Shown here piece by piece: positions 20,101 to 26,100 of a stretch of 64,000 nt of DNA; position 1 is the stretch's first letter, and the number at the start of each line of letters is the position of its first letter. The stretch comes from Longimicrobiales bacterium. Lineage in GTDB: Bacteria > Gemmatimonadota > Gemmatimonadetes > Longimicrobiales > Gaopeijiaceae. Made by a program: the position numbers. Location: contig CBDDCX010000008.1 of NCBI GenBank assembly GCA_965226375.1, positions 1,440,001 through 1,504,000 of the forward strand, given 5' to 3'.

Positions 20101-23100
20101 CTCCGAGCTATCAGAGCATCCACGCCCGGGAGGTCCGCGGGCACGTAGAAGAGGACCCTGGCCTGAGCACTCCCCACCTCCTCCACGAAGGCCGACCACG
20201 CATCGCTCAAAGTGATTTCAGTGGGATCCTCGACCGGTGTACCGACGGACACGAACTGAAATCCTGGTGCTCCGGCTTGTTGCGCCACCGATGGCATGGA
20301 CGCCTCGCGAAGGACGAGGTCAACCACGCCTACCGCGTTCGGCAATCCCAATGTCTGGTGAAGCACCGGCTCGGTGAGGGACAAATCGAAGAGGATGACA
20401 CGGTGACCCTGATCGGACCAAGCCCGTGCGACCGCGATCGCAGCGGCCGGGCTCCAGGACGATCGGGCGACGTCCGGCGTGACAATAAGGGTGACGACGC
20501 CTCCCCCGGCGCCTGAGACGAGTGCGCCGGGTGCCGCGATCTCCGGTAGATGACCGGAGTCCGGGTCAAACGGGTATAGGCGCGAGTGGCCCCGATCCAA
20601 CGGGTCCTACGCCCCTGGCATGGGTCGGATTACAGCCTCCGTCGATACGTCCGTTGTGCAGCTCGTGTGGGCTGACACCACAAGCTACACGACGACCCGG
20701 AGGGTTGTAAACAGGCTTGACGACGGGGGCGAGAAGCACACCTCGTCACTCGAACTCGCGCCTGGGCGCGTCGCCCCACAGAACCTCGAGTTGATAGAAC
20801 TCCCGGGCTCCCGGATGAAAGACGTGGACGACGAAGTCGATGTAGTCCACCAGGACCCAGCGCCCGCTCGCCAACCCCTCGACATGTGCGGGGCGGATGC
20901 CCAGTTCCTTCAACTCCCTGATGACGTGGTCACCGATGGCTTTGACCTGGACGTCGGACTGTCCGGTCGCCAGCAAGAAGTAGTCGGTGGCACTCGAGAT
21001 GCCCCTCAGGTCGAGGACAACCACGTCGGCTGCCTTGCGTTCGAGCGCGCACTCGGCTGCACGCTCTACGTCATGACCGATCTCGGACACGTCGGTGCTC
21101 GACTGATTTCCCATGCCGCTCTAGAAGAAGTAGTGCCCTACTCCTCCCCAGCGCGCTCCACACGTACATCGACTTGGACTTCGACCTGGCTATGGAAACG
21201 CACGGAAACCTTGAATTCTCCGAGGAGCTTCAGCGGCTCTTCGAGAATGACCGTGCGGCGGTCCACCTCGAAGTCCAATTCTCCCTGGTTCAGCTGGTCG
21301 GCGATGTCGGCGTTCGTGACCGAGCCGAACAACTTGCCGTCATCCCCCGCCCTGACATGAAACACGAGTGATTTTCCGTCGAGCTGGGCGGCGCGACGAC
21401 GTGCCTCGAGGTAGTCGTGCCTGGCCTTCTCCTCAGACCGCGCGTGCTCCTCCTCCAGCCTCTTCAAGTTGGCATCACTCGCCTGGTACGCGAGTCCTTG
21501 GGGGATCAGGTAGTTGCGCGCATAACCGGGCTTTACGTCGATGATGTCACCCTGACCTCCAAGCGCCTCTACCGTCTTCCTCAAAATGAGCTTCATGGAC
21601 CCTCTCCGTTTACGTGTCAGTCGTACCGCCGGACAACACGTCGGCCTTGGCTCGTAGGTCGAGCCAAGTATCGCCGACGCCGATGACCAGCGCCCCCATC
21701 GTCAAAACGGGCGCAAGGAGCAACATCCCGAGCGCCATCACCAAGAAACCGAACAGCGAAATACCGCCGTTGAAAAACAGAACCACGGCAACGCCCCGGA
21801 CCGCGTATAGCCCCCCCATGAACACGACGGCGTTGGTCCCCACCCGTGTCCACGCGTCACCTAATCCGAGCACTATCAGCACCAGTCCCACCAGCAATAG
21901 CCACACGAAGTGGTCGTTGAACCGGAAGTCCTTGAGCGGTCCAAGTCCCTGATCACTCCCCGCGGCGAGTCGCACATATCCCCACCAGGCGACACCGAGT
22001 CCCGCCAGCGACGACAGGCCCAGAAGCGCCGGGAATAGCCTTCCCTGAAGGGCCGCGGTCTCGAACGCGGTGTTGACCATCTCCGTCGGGATCTCCACGT
22101 CTGGCTTCCAGGCAGCCACCAAGCTCATGGCCAGGCTGACACTCTTCATGACACCCTCGGAAACGAGCCAATCCACCATGGCCCAGGAGCCCGGCTGGAC
22201 GGCCAGGAGCACCGCCACGAGCCCAAAGGCCCCACCGACGGCTCCGAGAGCCCTCGGAAAAAAGCGGCTGTCGGGCGACCGCATGGTCAGGAACACGAAC
22301 CCACCCGCCAGGATGATCGTCCATCCTCGCTCCAGGTACCAGAGACCTCCACGGGCCGTGGCCCCCAGCGTTACCATCACGGCCAATACGGCAGCCACCA
22401 CGGTCGGGAACCGGCGGGCACCGAGTACGGCGGCGAGCACCAGGAAGGGCACCGCCACCAGTACGCCGGCGCTGACGACCGACAGCCCCATGGTGACGAG
22501 CAGAAGCGCGGCAGCGCGCAGCCACGTGCGCTCGAGCCGCGTCGGGGAATCCAAGAGATCGTGCTCCGCGGAGACCTAGACCTCGTGGTCCCGTAGGTAT
22601 GGGATCAACGCCAGATACCGAGCCCGCTTTATGGCCCGCCCGAGCTGCCTCTGAAAACGAGCGGTGACCTTGGTCGTTCGCTTCGGCAAGATCTTACCCT
22701 GCTCCGTCATGCACTGAGAAAGGGTCGAGACGTCCTTGTAATTGAGAAGCTCGATGACCGGCCCTTCCATCCGACGACGCCGGCCGCGGCCCCCGGAAAA
22801 CTCTGGGGGTCTCTGCCGCCTGACGGCCCCTTCCTCATCCTCGGGCGCTTCCTCCTCAGGAGGCGGACCGTCATCCTCGTCCTCATCATCCTCGCTGATG
22901 CGGACCGGCCGCTCACCAAGGATGGATCTCCCGGTCGTAGGCTCCCCGTCGTTCAAGACCACGAGATGCCGCATGAGCTCAGGATCAAGCTTCAGAATTC
23001 GATCGAACTCGGGGAGGCCTTCGGAACCGGCGCGAACTTGCGCCACCACGTAATAGCCCGCCTTCTGCTTCCGCACGGAGTAGGCCATCTGACGGACGCC

Positions 23101-26100
23101 CCAATGATCGACGGCCACGACTTCTCCGTCACTGCCGGTCACGAGGAGATGGAACTTCTCGAGCTTCTTGTTTACCGCATCTTCGTCGAGCGTAGCATCG
23201 AAAATGTAGACGATCTCGTACAGCCGCATGGTATGTCTCCCACGGTCCGCATGTGCAACGGGCCCCGCCACAGGGGCGGAGCGGGATGAGCCAAGTAATA
23301 TAGGCCATGTGGGGGGGTTTTGTACCCCTGGGCCACTAGGACATTTCCTGCTGAAGAGCAAGGACGAGCTCGGGATACCGGGCAAAAGCCCAGCGGGCCT
23401 CCTCCACATCGAGACGCTCCCGATTCGTGTGTGCAAAGCGCTCCTCACCCGGAGCGAATCCCACCGTGGGGATTCCGAAAACACCTCGGCTCCAACCACC
23501 GTCCGTGGCAAACGTCCAGGGACGTACCGCGGCCGGGCCCTCTCCCGCGCGCTGTCCGACCGCAGCAGCTGCAGCCAGGACCAGCGGGTCGAGCGGATCC
23601 ATGAGGAAGCCAGGCGTAAAGAGGCTCCGATCGTGTGCAATTCCCGTGTAGGCAGCCTGTCGCTCCTGCGCCATCGAGACCGACACGCTGAAGCCGTCCG
23701 GGAGCTCGCCCAGTCCACGCGTCACGGCGTCTCTTACACGTGACGTCATGGCCTCTTCGTCCGTCCCGGGCAGGACCCGCCAGTCCAGGACAACCGTGAC
23801 CCGGTCGGGGATGACGTTGCGGCTTTCCGGCAGGACGTCCACACCGGTCGCTACCAGGCTCGAGGTACCGAGAATCGGATCCTCAGGCTGATGCGTGGCC
23901 AACTCCTGCACGGCCCCGAGCACTTGCGGGACCAAGTCCAGAGCGTTGTGGGCACGGTCCGGAGCCGAAGCGTGGCCGGCGAGGCCCCGCAGCACCACCT
24001 CGACCTCACCGCGGCCTCGATGCCCGATGCAAATGTCGCCGTGTGTCGATTCGCCGATCACCACGACGCCGGGCTGGACGCCCCCAGACTCGAGCAGGTG
24101 CTTCATGCCCAGACCACCGCGCTCCTCGAAGACGGTGTGCGCCACAATCACGTCTCCCGCGGCACGGCCGGCCAGGGCGGCGGCGGCGTACGTCTGCAGG
24201 GCCAGGGGCCCTTTGATATCCATGGAGCCACGCCCATGAAGAAACCCCTCGGCGACGTCCCCACCGAAGGGTGGGTACTCCCACTCCGCATGGTCGCCTT
24301 CGGCCACCACATCGGTGTGGCAGTTGAGCAGTACGGCCGGAGCGGCTCCGCTTCCCCGAACACAAGAGATGACGTTGCCCACCTCGTCGCGTCGCACGTC
24401 CTGCAGGCCCAGGGCTTCCATCTCGCTCAGAATCCGCTCAGCTACGTCGCCTTCCTGACCAGAAGGCGAGGGGATGCGGATGAGGTCCTGGGCAAATGCC
24501 AGGGCGTTCTCGAACGTTGGATCTTTCGCCATCGCTACTCGGGCCCGGCCGGCGGCCGGCCGGACCCCCTCAATCGAACAGCTTGGACACCCTACCCAAA
24601 GAGGCGGGCAACCCAGCCGATGAGACCGGAAACCTGGCCGTCGACGTTGATCTCGTGAACACGGACGAACCACGGTGCGAGCACGAGAGAAACGACGGCC
24701 ATGAGCTTGATGAGGATGTTCAAGGATGGACCGGACGTGTCCTTGAACGGATCGCCCACCGTGTCCCCTACGACAGCAGCCTTGTGGGGCTCGGAGCCCT
24801 TCCCGCCATGGGCTCCGGCTTCGATGAGCTTCTTGGCGTTATCCCATGCGCCCCCGGCATGGGCCATGAAGAGCGCCATGAGCACGCCGGTAACCGTAGC
24901 ACCAGCCAAGAAACCGCCCAGTGCCTCTACGCCCAGGAAGTAGCCCACCACAACCGGCGAGATGATCGCGGTCACTCCGGGAATAATCATCTCTCGTAGG
25001 GCAGCATCGGTGGAAATCGCCACGCAACGTGCCGAATCCGGCTTGGCGGTCCCGTCCATGATGCCCGGGTTCTCTCGGAATTGTCGCCTGACCTCCTCGA
25101 CCATGCCCTGAGCGGCCTTCCCCACCGCGGTCATGGTGAGGGCGGCGATGAAGAACGGGAGCATGCCACCGATGAAGAGGCCGATCACCACGATCGGATT
25201 CACGAGATCGATGCCCGTCTCGGACAACCCGACCTTGGTGGCGTACGCCGAGAACAGCGCCAACGCCGTGAGCGCCGCTGAGCCGATGGCAAAACCCTTG
25301 CCCTGGGCTGCGGTCGTGTTGCCGATGGCGTCGAGAGAATCGGTGATCGCCCGAGTCTCCGGTCCCAAGCCGCTCATCTCGCTGATACCGCCCGCGTTGT
25401 CGGCGATGGGTCCATACGCGTCCACGGACATGGTGACACCGACGGTGGCCAGCATGCCGACCGCTGCGATGCCGATGCCGTAGAGTCCGGCCGACGAGAA
25501 GGACGCGAAGATCGCGACACAGATCAACAACATGGGGATGGCGGTCGACTCCATACCCACCGCGAGCCCGGTGATGAGGTTGGTGGCCGCGCCCGTCTTG
25601 CTGGCCTCGGCGATCTTTCGTACGGGCCTGGAAGACGTGTAGTACTCGGTGACGAGCCCGATGGCTACGCCCACCACCGTCCCAGCGACGATGGCGTACC
25701 ACGGACCCATGGCCGGATACGTCTGGCCTCCCTCGACCATCTGGAGGTCCAGCGCACGAACGACGAAGAACATGGCCGCCAAGAAGAGGGCCGCCGCAAT
25801 GAACGTGACGTGACGCAGGGCCGCTGCCGGATCGGTACGTTCGAGCGCCTTCATCATCCCGATGCCCACGAGAGAAGCTACCAGACCCACCATCACGGTC
25901 ACGATGGGCAGCGCCACGGCGTTTCCAACATTGCCGGCCAGCGCGGCCGAACTGGCCGCGATGGCGATCGTAGCGATGACCGAGCCCACATAGGACTCGA
26001 AAATGTCTGCCCCCATGCCCGCCACGTCACCGACGTTGTCGCCGACATTGTCGGCGATGGTAGCCGGATTCCGAGGATCATCCTCGGGAATACCAGCCTC

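What a model noticed while it worked through the whole genome (the two positions that open the first line are those of the whole stretch)
22579..23232. Ribosomal proteins bS6 and bS18 fused into one polypeptide
Gene g03199 encodes one 217-aa protein with a complete bS6 domain (res 4-91), an acidic ~60-aa linker and a complete bS18 domain (res 162-209); no separate rpsR is found in the genome. I read it as a natural, functional bS6-bS18 fusion: the two proteins, which bind the 30S platform as a heterodimer, are here made as a single chain, and this is fixed in the family Gaopeijiaceae. New would be a natural fused bacterial r-protein pair, a ready-made test of co-assembly and stoichiometry, and a taxon marker.
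Evidence so far: pfam.tsv: Ribosomal_S6 4-91 and Ribosomal_S18 162-209 on g03199, the only S18 row; NCBIfam gives S6 and S18 equivalogs on this one gene; six-frame search with PF01084 finds this one place only (C8:1462603-1462746, E 7e-20; call 194). search_genomes with the 217-aa protein: of 40 other Gaopeijiaceae genomes (40 genera) 37 give one uninterrupted match from residue 1-3 to 213-217 with no stop (51-87% identity), one gives two matches inside one 291-aa open frame, two are cut by contig ends. Of 60 genomes of other Gemmatimonadota families 56 give two separate matches (S6 part, S18 part) and the other 4 one match with 1-3 stop codons between the parts. Full-text search bS6+bS18+fused: 12 papers, n [...]
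(Added by a program. Inside this text positions count along the whole contig: contig position 1,440,001 is position 1 of the stretch shown here. "Call 12" and the like, gene names such as g00115 and contig names such as C1 are that model's own, and its searches are not shown. The text may have been shortened before it was handed on; [...] marks where a part breaks off. The agent that wrote the report below was given it as the finding of a first reader that could run no searches.)

Follow-up and report, generated by a model that had tools for sequence, protein, structure and literature searches.

The report
Fused S6-S18 ribosomal protein gene
Two small-subunit ribosomal proteins that normally pair as separate chains (S6 and S18) are encoded here as one protein, a real and clade-wide trait that arose by loss of a stop codon, but similar fusions exist in other bacteria, so it is a neat variant and not a first.

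Summary
It is the only S6 and the only S18 locus in this 90%-complete genome.

It is not an assembly error. Of 100 other genomes of the same family, 92 have a complete stop-free in-frame fusion. Three more are stop-free as far as their contigs reach.

The fusion is not fixed in the family. Two genera keep separate genes, in the same frame, divided by one TAG and one codon. They branch as sister to a single fused clade. None of the other Gemmatimonadota families checked is fused.

The likely origin is loss of the rpsF stop codon in an adjacent, in-frame gene pair. In the same clade bS18 lost its zinc-type CxxC...CxxH motif, which all 15 unfused relatives keep. A conserved PPEFSGGRGRRRR junction takes its place.

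An internal start for S18 is not conserved. Cleavage after translation is untested.

S6-S18 fusions also occur in other lineages, for example a gammaproteobacteria-like group, and databases already auto-label them. I found no paper describing them. Verdict: a new variant of a known kind, of moderate interest.

The parts
22576..23229 (-). Fused rpsF-rpsR coding sequence: 217 codons plus a TAG stop
   Evidence: ORF list, sequence and translation. Pfam and NCBIfam match both S6 and S18. It is the only S6 and the only S18 locus in the genome.
22945..23229 (-). bS6 domain, residues 1-95
   Evidence: PF01250 residues 4-91 and TIGR00166 residues 1-92. AlphaFold2 pLDDT is 86-95 over residues 1-100. 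Foldseek matches solved S6 chains with a target-normalised TM-score up to 0.91.
22810..22944 (-). Acidic linker, residues 96-140. It continues the acidic C-terminal tail that unfused S6 of relatives already has.
   Evidence: pLDDT is below 50 for residues 109-142. In 39 fused loci the linker, counted from residue 98 to the junction motif, is 35-171 aa (median 43) with a median D+E content of 40%. It is always in frame and stop-free. Unfused relatives end S6 in a D/E-rich tail of 15-84 aa, G068 apart (6 aa).
22771..22809 (-). Conserved junction motif PPEFSGGRGRRRR, residues 141-153. It is specific to the fused clade and replaces the Cys-bearing N-terminus of unfused bS18.
   Evidence: These positions are invariant or at least 90% conserved in a 70-sequence alignment. 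The motif is present in the fused loci and absent from all 15 unfused ones.
22579..22770 (-). bS18 core, residues 154-217, of the C- type (no CxxC...CxxH)
   Evidence: PF01084 residues 162-209 and TIGR00165 residues 159-213. Solved S18 chains align from query residue 153. The zinc-type pattern is absent.
22768..22770 (-). Internal ATG (Met154).
   Evidence: No Shine-Dalgarno-like motif lies upstream of it in this genome. At this position, 39 fused loci have ATG 14, GTG 6 and other codons 19 (CAC 7, GTC 5, ATC 4, GTT, ACG, TTA).
23230..23288 (-). Conserved structured 5' leader. An outer helix pairs UCCC with the GGGA of the Shine-Dalgarno sequence (GGGAG at 23237-23241) and encloses two hairpins.
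   Evidence: RNAalifold on 14 family loci predicts 15 pairs, 2 of them with compensatory changes. The sequence is conserved in fused and unfused relatives. Rfam gives no family match.
21610..22554 (-). Downstream gene: DUF2232 membrane protein
   Evidence: PF09991, E 4.9e-07, 29.6 bits, cut-off 27.8.
21138..21596 (-). Downstream gene: rplI (bL9)
   Evidence: PF01281 and PF03948.

Best explanation
The gene encodes a single-chain bS6-bS18 protein that supplies both platform proteins of the 30S subunit. This is inferred from sequence; no protein data exist.

Proposed history:
- The ancestor had rpsF and rpsR adjacent and in the same frame, separated only by the rpsF stop, one or two codons and the rpsR ATG.
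- Loss of that stop, inside the family, joined the acidic C-terminal tail of bS6 to the N-terminus of bS18.
- In the same lineage bS18 lost its zinc-type CxxC...CxxH ligands. Its N-terminal segment was replaced by a conserved Pro/Gly/Arg-rich junction, PPEFSGGRGRRRR.

The disordered acidic linker acts as a tether of free length. The two folded domains are expected to sit on the 16S central domain as the usual heterodimer, now at fixed 1:1 stoichiometry and made together.

Shown here: the ORF, its conservation, the single origin, the layout of the unfused relatives, the loss of the Cys/His pattern, and the lack of any second S18 gene.

Inferred: translation as one chain, incorporation uncleaved, and any link between the fusion and the loss of zinc binding.
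For: 1. Real and selected.
- 92 of 100 other family genomes have a complete in-frame, stop-free fusion, and 3 more are stop-free up to a contig end.
- Protein length ranges from 209 to 345 aa in 39 translated loci, and the linker from 35 to 171 aa. S18 is in frame 0 with no stop in all 39.
- Unfused pairs in sister families f2, f3 and f6 lie in other frames.

2. Sole copy.
- The own genome has one S18 and one S6 locus.
- 98 of 100 other family genomes have an S18 match, each at one locus; G073's second row is a contig-end fragment. In the fused genomes that locus is the fused gene. The 2 without a match are 69-70% complete.

3. Origin.
- The two unfused family genera (G081, G074) and members of f5 and f7 have S6 ending in a D/E tail, then one stop, 1-2 codons and the ATG of S18, all in frame 0.

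4. Single event.
- In a maximum-likelihood tree of S6 plus the S18 core (53 rows), the 39 fused rows form one clade (support 100/98).
- That clade is sister to the 2 unfused family genera (97/95), and then to f2+f3.

5. Internal start is not conserved.
- The codon at the Met154 position is ATG or GTG in 20 of 39 loci.
- 17 of 39 have no ATG, GTG or TTG within 15 codons before the NYKD motif, and 11 of 39 have none within 45.
- 3 of 39 have none anywhere in the linker.
- 38 of 39 annotated starts have a GGAG or GAGG motif upstream. The window's internal ATG has none.

6. The conserved Arg-rich segment lies upstream of Met154, so it is conserved as translated protein.

7. Structure.
- The AlphaFold2 model gives a confident S6 domain, a disordered linker and a folded S18 core, with pTM 0.71.
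- The model matches the S6 fold.

8. Zinc pattern.
- All 15 unfused S18 sequences examined have C-x2-C...C-x2-H. All 39 fused ones lack it.
- PMC10450194 (passages read) defines the zinc-binding C+ isoform of bS18 by exactly this (CXXC)-(CXXH) pattern.
Against: - There is no protein, ribosome or expression evidence of any kind.
- The strictly conserved junction motif could be a processing site rather than a contact surface.
- In this particular genome an in-frame ATG (Met154) does stand just before the S18 core. A 64-aa product is therefore not excluded here.
- The tree uses the same protein whose S18 part changed with the fusion, so the branch that unites the fused rows is partly built from fusion-linked substitutions.
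- The fusion and the loss of the Cys/His pattern map to one branch. That is a single event, so no causal link can be drawn.
- The model gives no inter-domain error estimates, so heterodimer-like packing was not tested.
Confidence: 0.72

Rival explanations
1. Polyprotein precursor. The chain is translated whole and then cut at or near the conserved PPEF/SGG junction, so mature ribosomes hold ordinary separate bS6 and bS18.
For: - The junction PPEFSGG is invariant or at least 90% conserved, although the model predicts it disordered (pLDDT below 50 for residues 144-153).
- Unfused relatives have no such motif.
- From my recall, not from any call: bL27 of Firmicutes is trimmed after a Phe by the Prp protease.
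Against: - No Prp-family protease (PF04327) is found in the own genome at E<=1; the genome is 90% complete.
- No other candidate protease was identified or sought.
- The motif is adjacent to an Arg-rich run and could equally be an rRNA contact.
- Cleavage would not explain why the frame and an open linker of 35-171 aa are kept so strictly, beyond the need to translate through it. This argument is weak either way.
Confidence: 0.14
2. Dual output. In this genome the internal ATG (Met154) also starts a separate, N-terminally short bS18 of 64 aa alongside the full chain.
For: - ATG stands at window 22768-22770.
- ATG or GTG occupies this position in 20 of 39 fused loci.
- Gene callers have produced 64-88 aa proteins starting here, P0147, P0149 and P0157. 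I did not check whether these come from cut contigs.
Against: - No Shine-Dalgarno-like motif lies upstream in the window.
- 19 of 39 loci have non-start codons here (CAC, GTC, ATC and others).
- 17 of 39 have no start codon within 15 codons of the S18 core.
- The product would lack the conserved Arg-rich segment.
- The position matches the second Cys of the ancestral CxxC, which explains a variable hydrophobic or His residue without invoking a start.
Confidence: 0.1
3. Artefact or decaying gene: an assembly or sequencing error removed the stop, or the locus is a pseudogene.
For: - The genome is a draft of 8 contigs and 90% completeness.
- Some fused predictions elsewhere in the databases look like chimeras, with overlapping or abutting domain borders: P0150, P0188, P0230, P0234.
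Against: - The same architecture appears in 92 of 100 independently assembled family genomes, including many single-contig ones.
- 1656 protein clusters match at E<=1e-5, and the best 120 all carry both domains.
- It is the only S6 and S18 gene in the genome.
- Both domains score far above the curated cut-offs.
Confidence: 0.01

Closest known systems
Canonical bacterial bS6:bS18 heterodimer (separate rpsF and rpsR products, as in the solved E. coli, T. thermophilus and B. subtilis ribosomes)
   Same: Both domains are full length and score as equivalogs. The S6 fold matches solved chains with a target-normalised TM-score up to 0.91. S18 aligns to solved chains from query residue 153 to 215. The acidic S6 tail is already present in unfused relatives.
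   Different: Here it is one polypeptide. All 60 chains listed (of 102 matching at E<=1e-5) are S6 or S18 alone. There is no ssb or priB between the two parts.
Unfused rpsF-stop-rpsR pairs of the sister genera (G081, G074) and of other Gemmatimonadota families
   Same: The gene order is the same. The frame is also the same in G081, G074 and the sampled f5, f7 and f10 genomes (f2, f3 and f6 use another frame). They share the acidic S6 tail, a related 5' leader and a related S18 core.
   Different: They keep a stop codon and an ATG for S18. Their S18 has the CxxC...CxxH zinc-type pattern and lacks the PPEFSGGRGRRRR junction.
S6-S18 fusions in other lineages (the gammaproteobacteria-like group around P0164, and others in the protein libraries)
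   Same: The domain order is the same, S6 then S18, with a linker of about 20-75 aa. Both Pfam domains are present. 38 of the 39 two-part representatives lack the Cys/His pattern.
   Different: Identity to the window protein is only 29-49%, and their S6 N-termini resemble other phyla, so they are probably independent events. They lack the PPEF junction motif. Their 90%-identity clusters are small, 1-3 members for the ten examined.
rpsF_leader, the mRNA structure bound by the S6:S18 complex that represses rpsF translation in E. coli (PMC4647458; abstract and passages read)
   Same: A conserved, structured 5' leader lies directly before rpsF and its outer helix includes the Shine-Dalgarno sequence. 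That paper states that regulation needs S6 and S18 together and that the leader is widespread across phyla.
   Different: Rfam gives no family match, either in the 3.5-kb scan at E<=1 or in the 131-nt scan at E<=10. Homology and protein binding are untested.

Membership tests
bS6 (Pfam PF01250, NCBIfam TIGR00166) | Profile match above the curated cut-off over the whole domain | tested here: met
   PF01250: 83.5 bits against a cut-off of 27, profile positions 2-89 of 90. TIGR00166: 77.8 bits against 42.9, positions 1-92 of 95.
bS6 (Pfam PF01250, NCBIfam TIGR00166) | S6 fold (alpha/beta sandwich as in solved S6 chains) | tested here: met
   Model pLDDT is 86-95 over residues 1-100. Foldseek gives a target-normalised TM-score of 0.91 and rmsd 1.3 A to 8cwo_F, and the 50 matches listed are S6 chains or the S6 protein on its own by entry title.
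bS18 (Pfam PF01084, NCBIfam TIGR00165) | Profile match above the curated cut-off | tested here: met
   PF01084: 70.6 bits against 21, positions 5-52 of 52. TIGR00165: 71.2 bits against 38.75, positions 15-69 of 70.
bS18 C+ (zinc-binding) isoform | (CXXC)-(CXXH) pattern, as defined in PMC10450194 | tested here: not met
   Absent from the window protein and from all 39 fused loci. Present in all 15 unfused relatives. The definition was read.
Functional bS6:bS18 unit of the 30S platform | Incorporation into ribosomes and binding to the 16S central domain | not testable with these tools
   Supported only indirectly: it is the sole S6 and S18 gene in the genome and in the sampled family genomes.
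rpsF_leader RNA | Match to a curated covariance model, and binding of the S6:S18 complex | tested here: inconclusive
   No Rfam family matched; I do not know whether the library holds a model of this leader. A conserved structure with the Shine-Dalgarno sequence in a helix exists. Binding cannot be tested here.
Prp-type processing of ribosomal protein precursors | Presence of a Prp cysteine protease (PF04327) in the genome | tested here: not met
   No match at E<=1 in the own genome, which is 90% complete. The control search matches in 6 of 14 control genomes (over the cut-off in 3).

The most novel reading that the evidence does not exclude
The covalent tether replaced the zinc knuckle. In this reading, once bS18 was fused to bS6 its N-terminal CxxC...CxxH zinc site became dispensable. 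It was exchanged for the conserved PPEFSGGRGRRRR segment, which gives a zinc-independent, obligately co-assembled platform module.

The new junction and the acidic tether of variable length would lie beside the groove between bS6 and bS18. In Flavobacterium that groove holds the 16S 3' end with the anti-Shine-Dalgarno sequence (PMC7797042, passages read). From there they could tune start-site selection, and the single chain could repress its own structured leader.
Probability: 0.2. Interest if true: 0.6.

Novelty: new variant of a known kind. Interest (0 to 1): 0.4.

Why it matters
bS6 and bS18 are a standard example of ribosomal proteins that must pair before they bind rRNA. This clade offers a natural single-chain version. 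Close relatives that are still unfused differ by one stop codon plus a remodelled S18 N-terminus, so the two states can be compared directly.

Questions this would allow:
- Whether fixed stoichiometry and co-translation matter for platform assembly.
- Whether a tether can stand in for a zinc site.
- Whether S6:S18 autoregulation works with one chain.

The fusion is also a clean marker that splits the family into a fused clade and an unfused basal lineage. Its weight is limited because the same architecture has arisen in other bacteria and is already auto-annotated in databases.

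Tried and rejected
- Rfam over window 20500-24000 (E<=1) and over the 131-nt leader (E<=10). 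No ribosomal leader was found. The only row was a chance archaeal snoRNA match, E 4.3, at 12.5 bits against a gathering score of 36.
- Consensus promoter scan of 20600-23500: 0 sites. A TATATT box about 8 nt upstream of the leader is my reading of the alignment only.
- The search for related loci in genome contigs gave only 3 loci and added little. One was an S6-only Chloroflexaceae hit.
- Literature searches:
  - bS6+bS18+fusion: 27 papers, listing read.
  - rpsF+rpsR+fused: 25 papers, listing read.
  - 'ribosomal protein'+'gene fusion'+Gemmatimonadetes+S18: 0 papers.
  - Six exact phrases for an S6-S18 fusion: 7 papers, all about eukaryotic S6 kinase or unrelated topics.
- Papers opened:
  - Yutin et al. 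2012 (PMC3353972) has no occurrence of 'fusion', 'fused' or 'S18'.
  - PMC7947838 and PMC7203096 have nothing relevant.
- No paper on a natural S6-S18 fusion was found. Subscription journals and supplements were not searched.
- Complex prediction of the two halves was not run. It would pass by likeness to solved ribosomes and would not address the open question of cleavage.
- RNA-seq runs were not sought. Co-transcription would not distinguish one chain from two.
- G068 (24-37% identity, the two genes in different frames about 570 nt apart, 60%-complete genome) was left out of the tree as probably not comparable.

Full report
**1. What is in the sequence**

On the minus strand an ORF runs from an ATG at window 23229-23227 to a TAG at 22578-22576. 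It has 217 codons.

Domain matches:
- Pfam: Ribosomal_S6 on residues 4-91 (83.5 bits, cut-off 27) and Ribosomal_S18 on residues 162-209 (70.6 bits, cut-off 21).
- NCBIfam: the S6 equivalog on residues 1-92 and the S18 equivalog on residues 159-213.

Six-frame searches of the whole genome (8 contigs, 90% complete) find one S18 place above the cut-off and one S6 place. Both lie in this ORF.

Downstream on the same strand lie a DUF2232 membrane protein, bL9 and RsfS.

A GGGAG Shine-Dalgarno-like motif lies 7 nt before the ATG.

**2. Is it real?**

I searched 100 other genomes of the same family (81 genera in the sample, own genus included) with the 217-aa protein. Results:
- 86 genomes: one uninterrupted, stop-free match from residue 1-3 to residue 213-217.
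- 6 genomes: two matches inside one open frame.
- 3 genomes (G030, G037, G073): cut by contig ends, but stop-free across what is present.
- G080: only residues 1-59 found.
- G095: no match (69% complete).
- G081 and G074: one TAG between the parts.
- G068: the parts lie in different frames, at 24-37% identity.

Translating 39 fused loci, including the 6 two-match cases, shows S18 in frame 0 with S6 and no stop in every one. Total length ranges from 209 to 345 aa and the linker from 35 to 171 aa. Keeping the frame across such length variation is what translation through the linker predicts.

A profile search for S18 in the same 100 genomes finds exactly one S18 locus in each of 98. G073 has a second copy at a contig end. 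In the fused genomes that locus is the fused gene. The two genomes with no match are 69-70% complete.

In the large protein collection, 1656 clusters match at E<=1e-5, and the best 120 all carry both Pfam domains. An assembly artefact or a pseudogene is excluded.

**3. Where the fusion begins and ends**

In a phylum-wide sample of 200 other genomes in 12 families:
- All 23 family members are stop-free. 13 give a single match and 10 give two matches sharing one open frame.
- All 177 genomes of the other 11 families give either one match with 1-3 internal stops (13 genomes) or 2-3 separate matches (164 genomes).

A profile search for S18 in the same sample lists 150 best rows, all from non-family genomes:
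- In 139 rows the S18 open frame is shorter than 165 aa. That is too short to hold a complete S6 and S18.
- Of the 11 longer ones, 7 have an open-frame length different from that of their S6 match.
- The other 4 (G168, G226, G276, G189) have S6 and S18 in different frames.
- The remaining 52 rows were not listed.

All 12 outgroup loci that I translated are unfused.

Four genomes in these samples (G157, G192, G249, G272) are flagged unpublished. They enter only these counts.

**4. How it arose**

In the two unfused family genera, and in the sampled members of f5 and f7, the layout is the same. S6 ends in a D/E-rich tail, followed by one stop codon, one or two codons and the ATG of S18, all in the same frame. 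A single change in that stop would give an in-frame fusion.

A maximum-likelihood tree of S6 (residues 1-96) plus the S18 core has 53 rows, with G068 left out:
- The 39 fused rows form one clade (support 100/98).
- That clade is sister to the two unfused family genera (97/95).
- The next sister group is f2+f3.

This supports one origin inside the family, after the G081/G074 lineage split off. One caveat applies. The tree uses the protein that changed with the fusion, so a multi-marker species tree is still needed.

**5. What changed with the fusion**

All 15 unfused S18 sequences carry C-x2-C-E near the N-terminus and C-[A/S]-x-H further on. They are the 2 family genera, G068, 4 from f2, 2 from f3, 2 from f5, 1 from f6, 2 from f7 and 1 from f10. 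All 39 fused sequences lack every one of these Cys and His residues.

PMC10450194 defines the zinc-binding C+ isoform of bS18 by exactly the (CXXC)-(CXXH) pattern (passages read). So the fused clade carries a C- type bS18.

In place of the Cys-bearing N-terminus stands PPEFSGGRGRRRR. These positions are invariant or at least 90% conserved in a 70-sequence alignment. Because the fusion and the loss map to one branch, no causal link can be shown.

The acidic linker is not new. Unfused S6 of relatives already ends in a D/E-rich tail of 15-84 aa (G068 has only 6).

**6. One chain or two?**

*Internal start.* The window has an ATG at Met154, nine codons before the NYKD motif. It has no Shine-Dalgarno-like motif. 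Across the 39 fused loci:
- The codon at this position is ATG in 14, GTG in 6, and a non-start codon in 19.
- 17 have no ATG, GTG or TTG within 15 codons upstream of NYKD, and 11 have none within 45.
- 3 have none anywhere in the linker.

By alignment this residue occupies the place of the second Cys of the old CxxC. The conserved Arg-rich run lies upstream of it. A conserved internal start is therefore unlikely, although a minor product in this genome is not excluded.

*Cleavage.* The strict conservation of a junction that the model predicts to be disordered could mark a processing site. No Prp-type protease is found in the genome. I cannot test further.

*Model.* AlphaFold2 on the 70-sequence alignment gives:
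- pLDDT 86-95 for residues 1-100.
- pLDDT below 50 for residues 109-153, apart from residue 143.
- Block means of 57-93 for the S18 core.
- pTM 0.71.

Foldseek confirms the S6 fold. All 60 listed PDB sequence matches (of 102) are separate S6 or S18 chains.

**7. Comparison with what is known**

The parts are ordinary bS6 and bS18. The new feature is the covalent join, and this architecture is not unique to the clade:
- Of the 150 best 50%-identity representatives from the 1.84-billion-protein library, 39 contain both parts by a local phmmer scan. About 7 are of the Gemmatimonadota type. The rest are 29-49% identical, with S6 N-termini resembling other phyla. Four look like truncated chimeras.
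- Their 90% clusters are small, 1-3 members for the ten examined, though one was seen on 7 contigs from four sources.
- Atlas clusters of 61, 55 and 88 members with both domains are commonest in Pseudomonadota.
- 22 of the best 120 relatives of P0164 carry both domains, and one is named as from a gammaproteobacterial MAG.
- Sources already use labels such as 'ribosomal protein S6/ribosomal protein S18' and 'Multifunctional fusion protein'.
- Earlier notes of this scan report S6-S18 fusions in several other lineages. These are unchecked leads that agree.

I found no paper describing a natural S6-S18 fusion (listings and term searches only).

**8. A side observation that bears on function**

The 59 nt before the ATG (window 23230-23288) are strongly conserved in fused and unfused relatives. 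RNAalifold on 14 family loci folds them into an outer helix that pairs UCCC with the GGGA of the Shine-Dalgarno sequence, enclosing two hairpins. It predicts 15 pairs, 2 of them with compensatory changes.

In E. coli the S6:S18 complex, and neither protein alone, represses rpsF through a leader structure said to be widespread across phyla (PMC4647458, abstract and passages). Rfam gave no match here. Whether this is the same leader, and whether the single chain binds it, is open.

**9. Verdict**

The most likely mechanism is that a lost stop codon created a single-chain bS6-bS18, which is incorporated as such (confidence 0.72). The rivals are cleavage at the conserved junction (0.14) and an extra internal start in this genome (0.10).

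Novelty: a new variant of a known kind. Interest: 0.4.

Noticed in passing
window 23230-23288 (minus strand), with a possible TATATT box at about 23297-23302: A conserved structured 5' leader lies before the fused gene. An outer helix sequesters the Shine-Dalgarno GGGA and encloses two hairpins. Two pairs show compensatory changes. The leader is conserved in fused and unfused relatives and has no Rfam match. It is possibly a version of the S6:S18-responsive rpsF leader.
   Followed up: partly
L050 (G048), L051 (G057), L053 (G055), L054 (G096), L055 (G100), L052 (G018), L056 (G005): In several genera the linker has expanded to about 70-170 aa of Ala/Gly/Asp/Glu-rich low-complexity sequence, giving proteins of 243-345 aa. 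It is still in frame and stop-free. Four of these genera (G048, G096, G055, G100) form one clade in the tree together with G057 and G053.
   Followed up: partly
L049 (G068:C9:1200-3800): One genome placed in the family (60% complete, 1.0 Mb) has S6 and S18 only 24-37% identical to the query, with the two genes about 570 nt apart. This contig looks like it comes from a different lineage or from contamination.
   Followed up: no
proteins P0164 and P0275-P0294: A gammaproteobacteria-like group of fused S6-S18 proteins, 189-244 aa and 46-83% identical to each other. One is named as from a gammaproteobacterial MAG. One sits in UniRef under a tsetse-fly assembly, labelled bS6m.
   Followed up: partly
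proteins P0150, P0188, P0230, P0234: These predicted S6-S18 proteins have domain borders that overlap or abut (gap 0 or negative) and are 106-151 aa long. They are probably assembly or gene-call chimeras, which is a warning against counting every two-domain hit as a true fusion.
   Followed up: no
window 20746-22554 (minus strand): Downstream of the fusion lie DUF2232, rplI and rsfS. No ssb or priB is associated with rpsF and rpsR here or in the unfused relatives examined.
   Followed up: no
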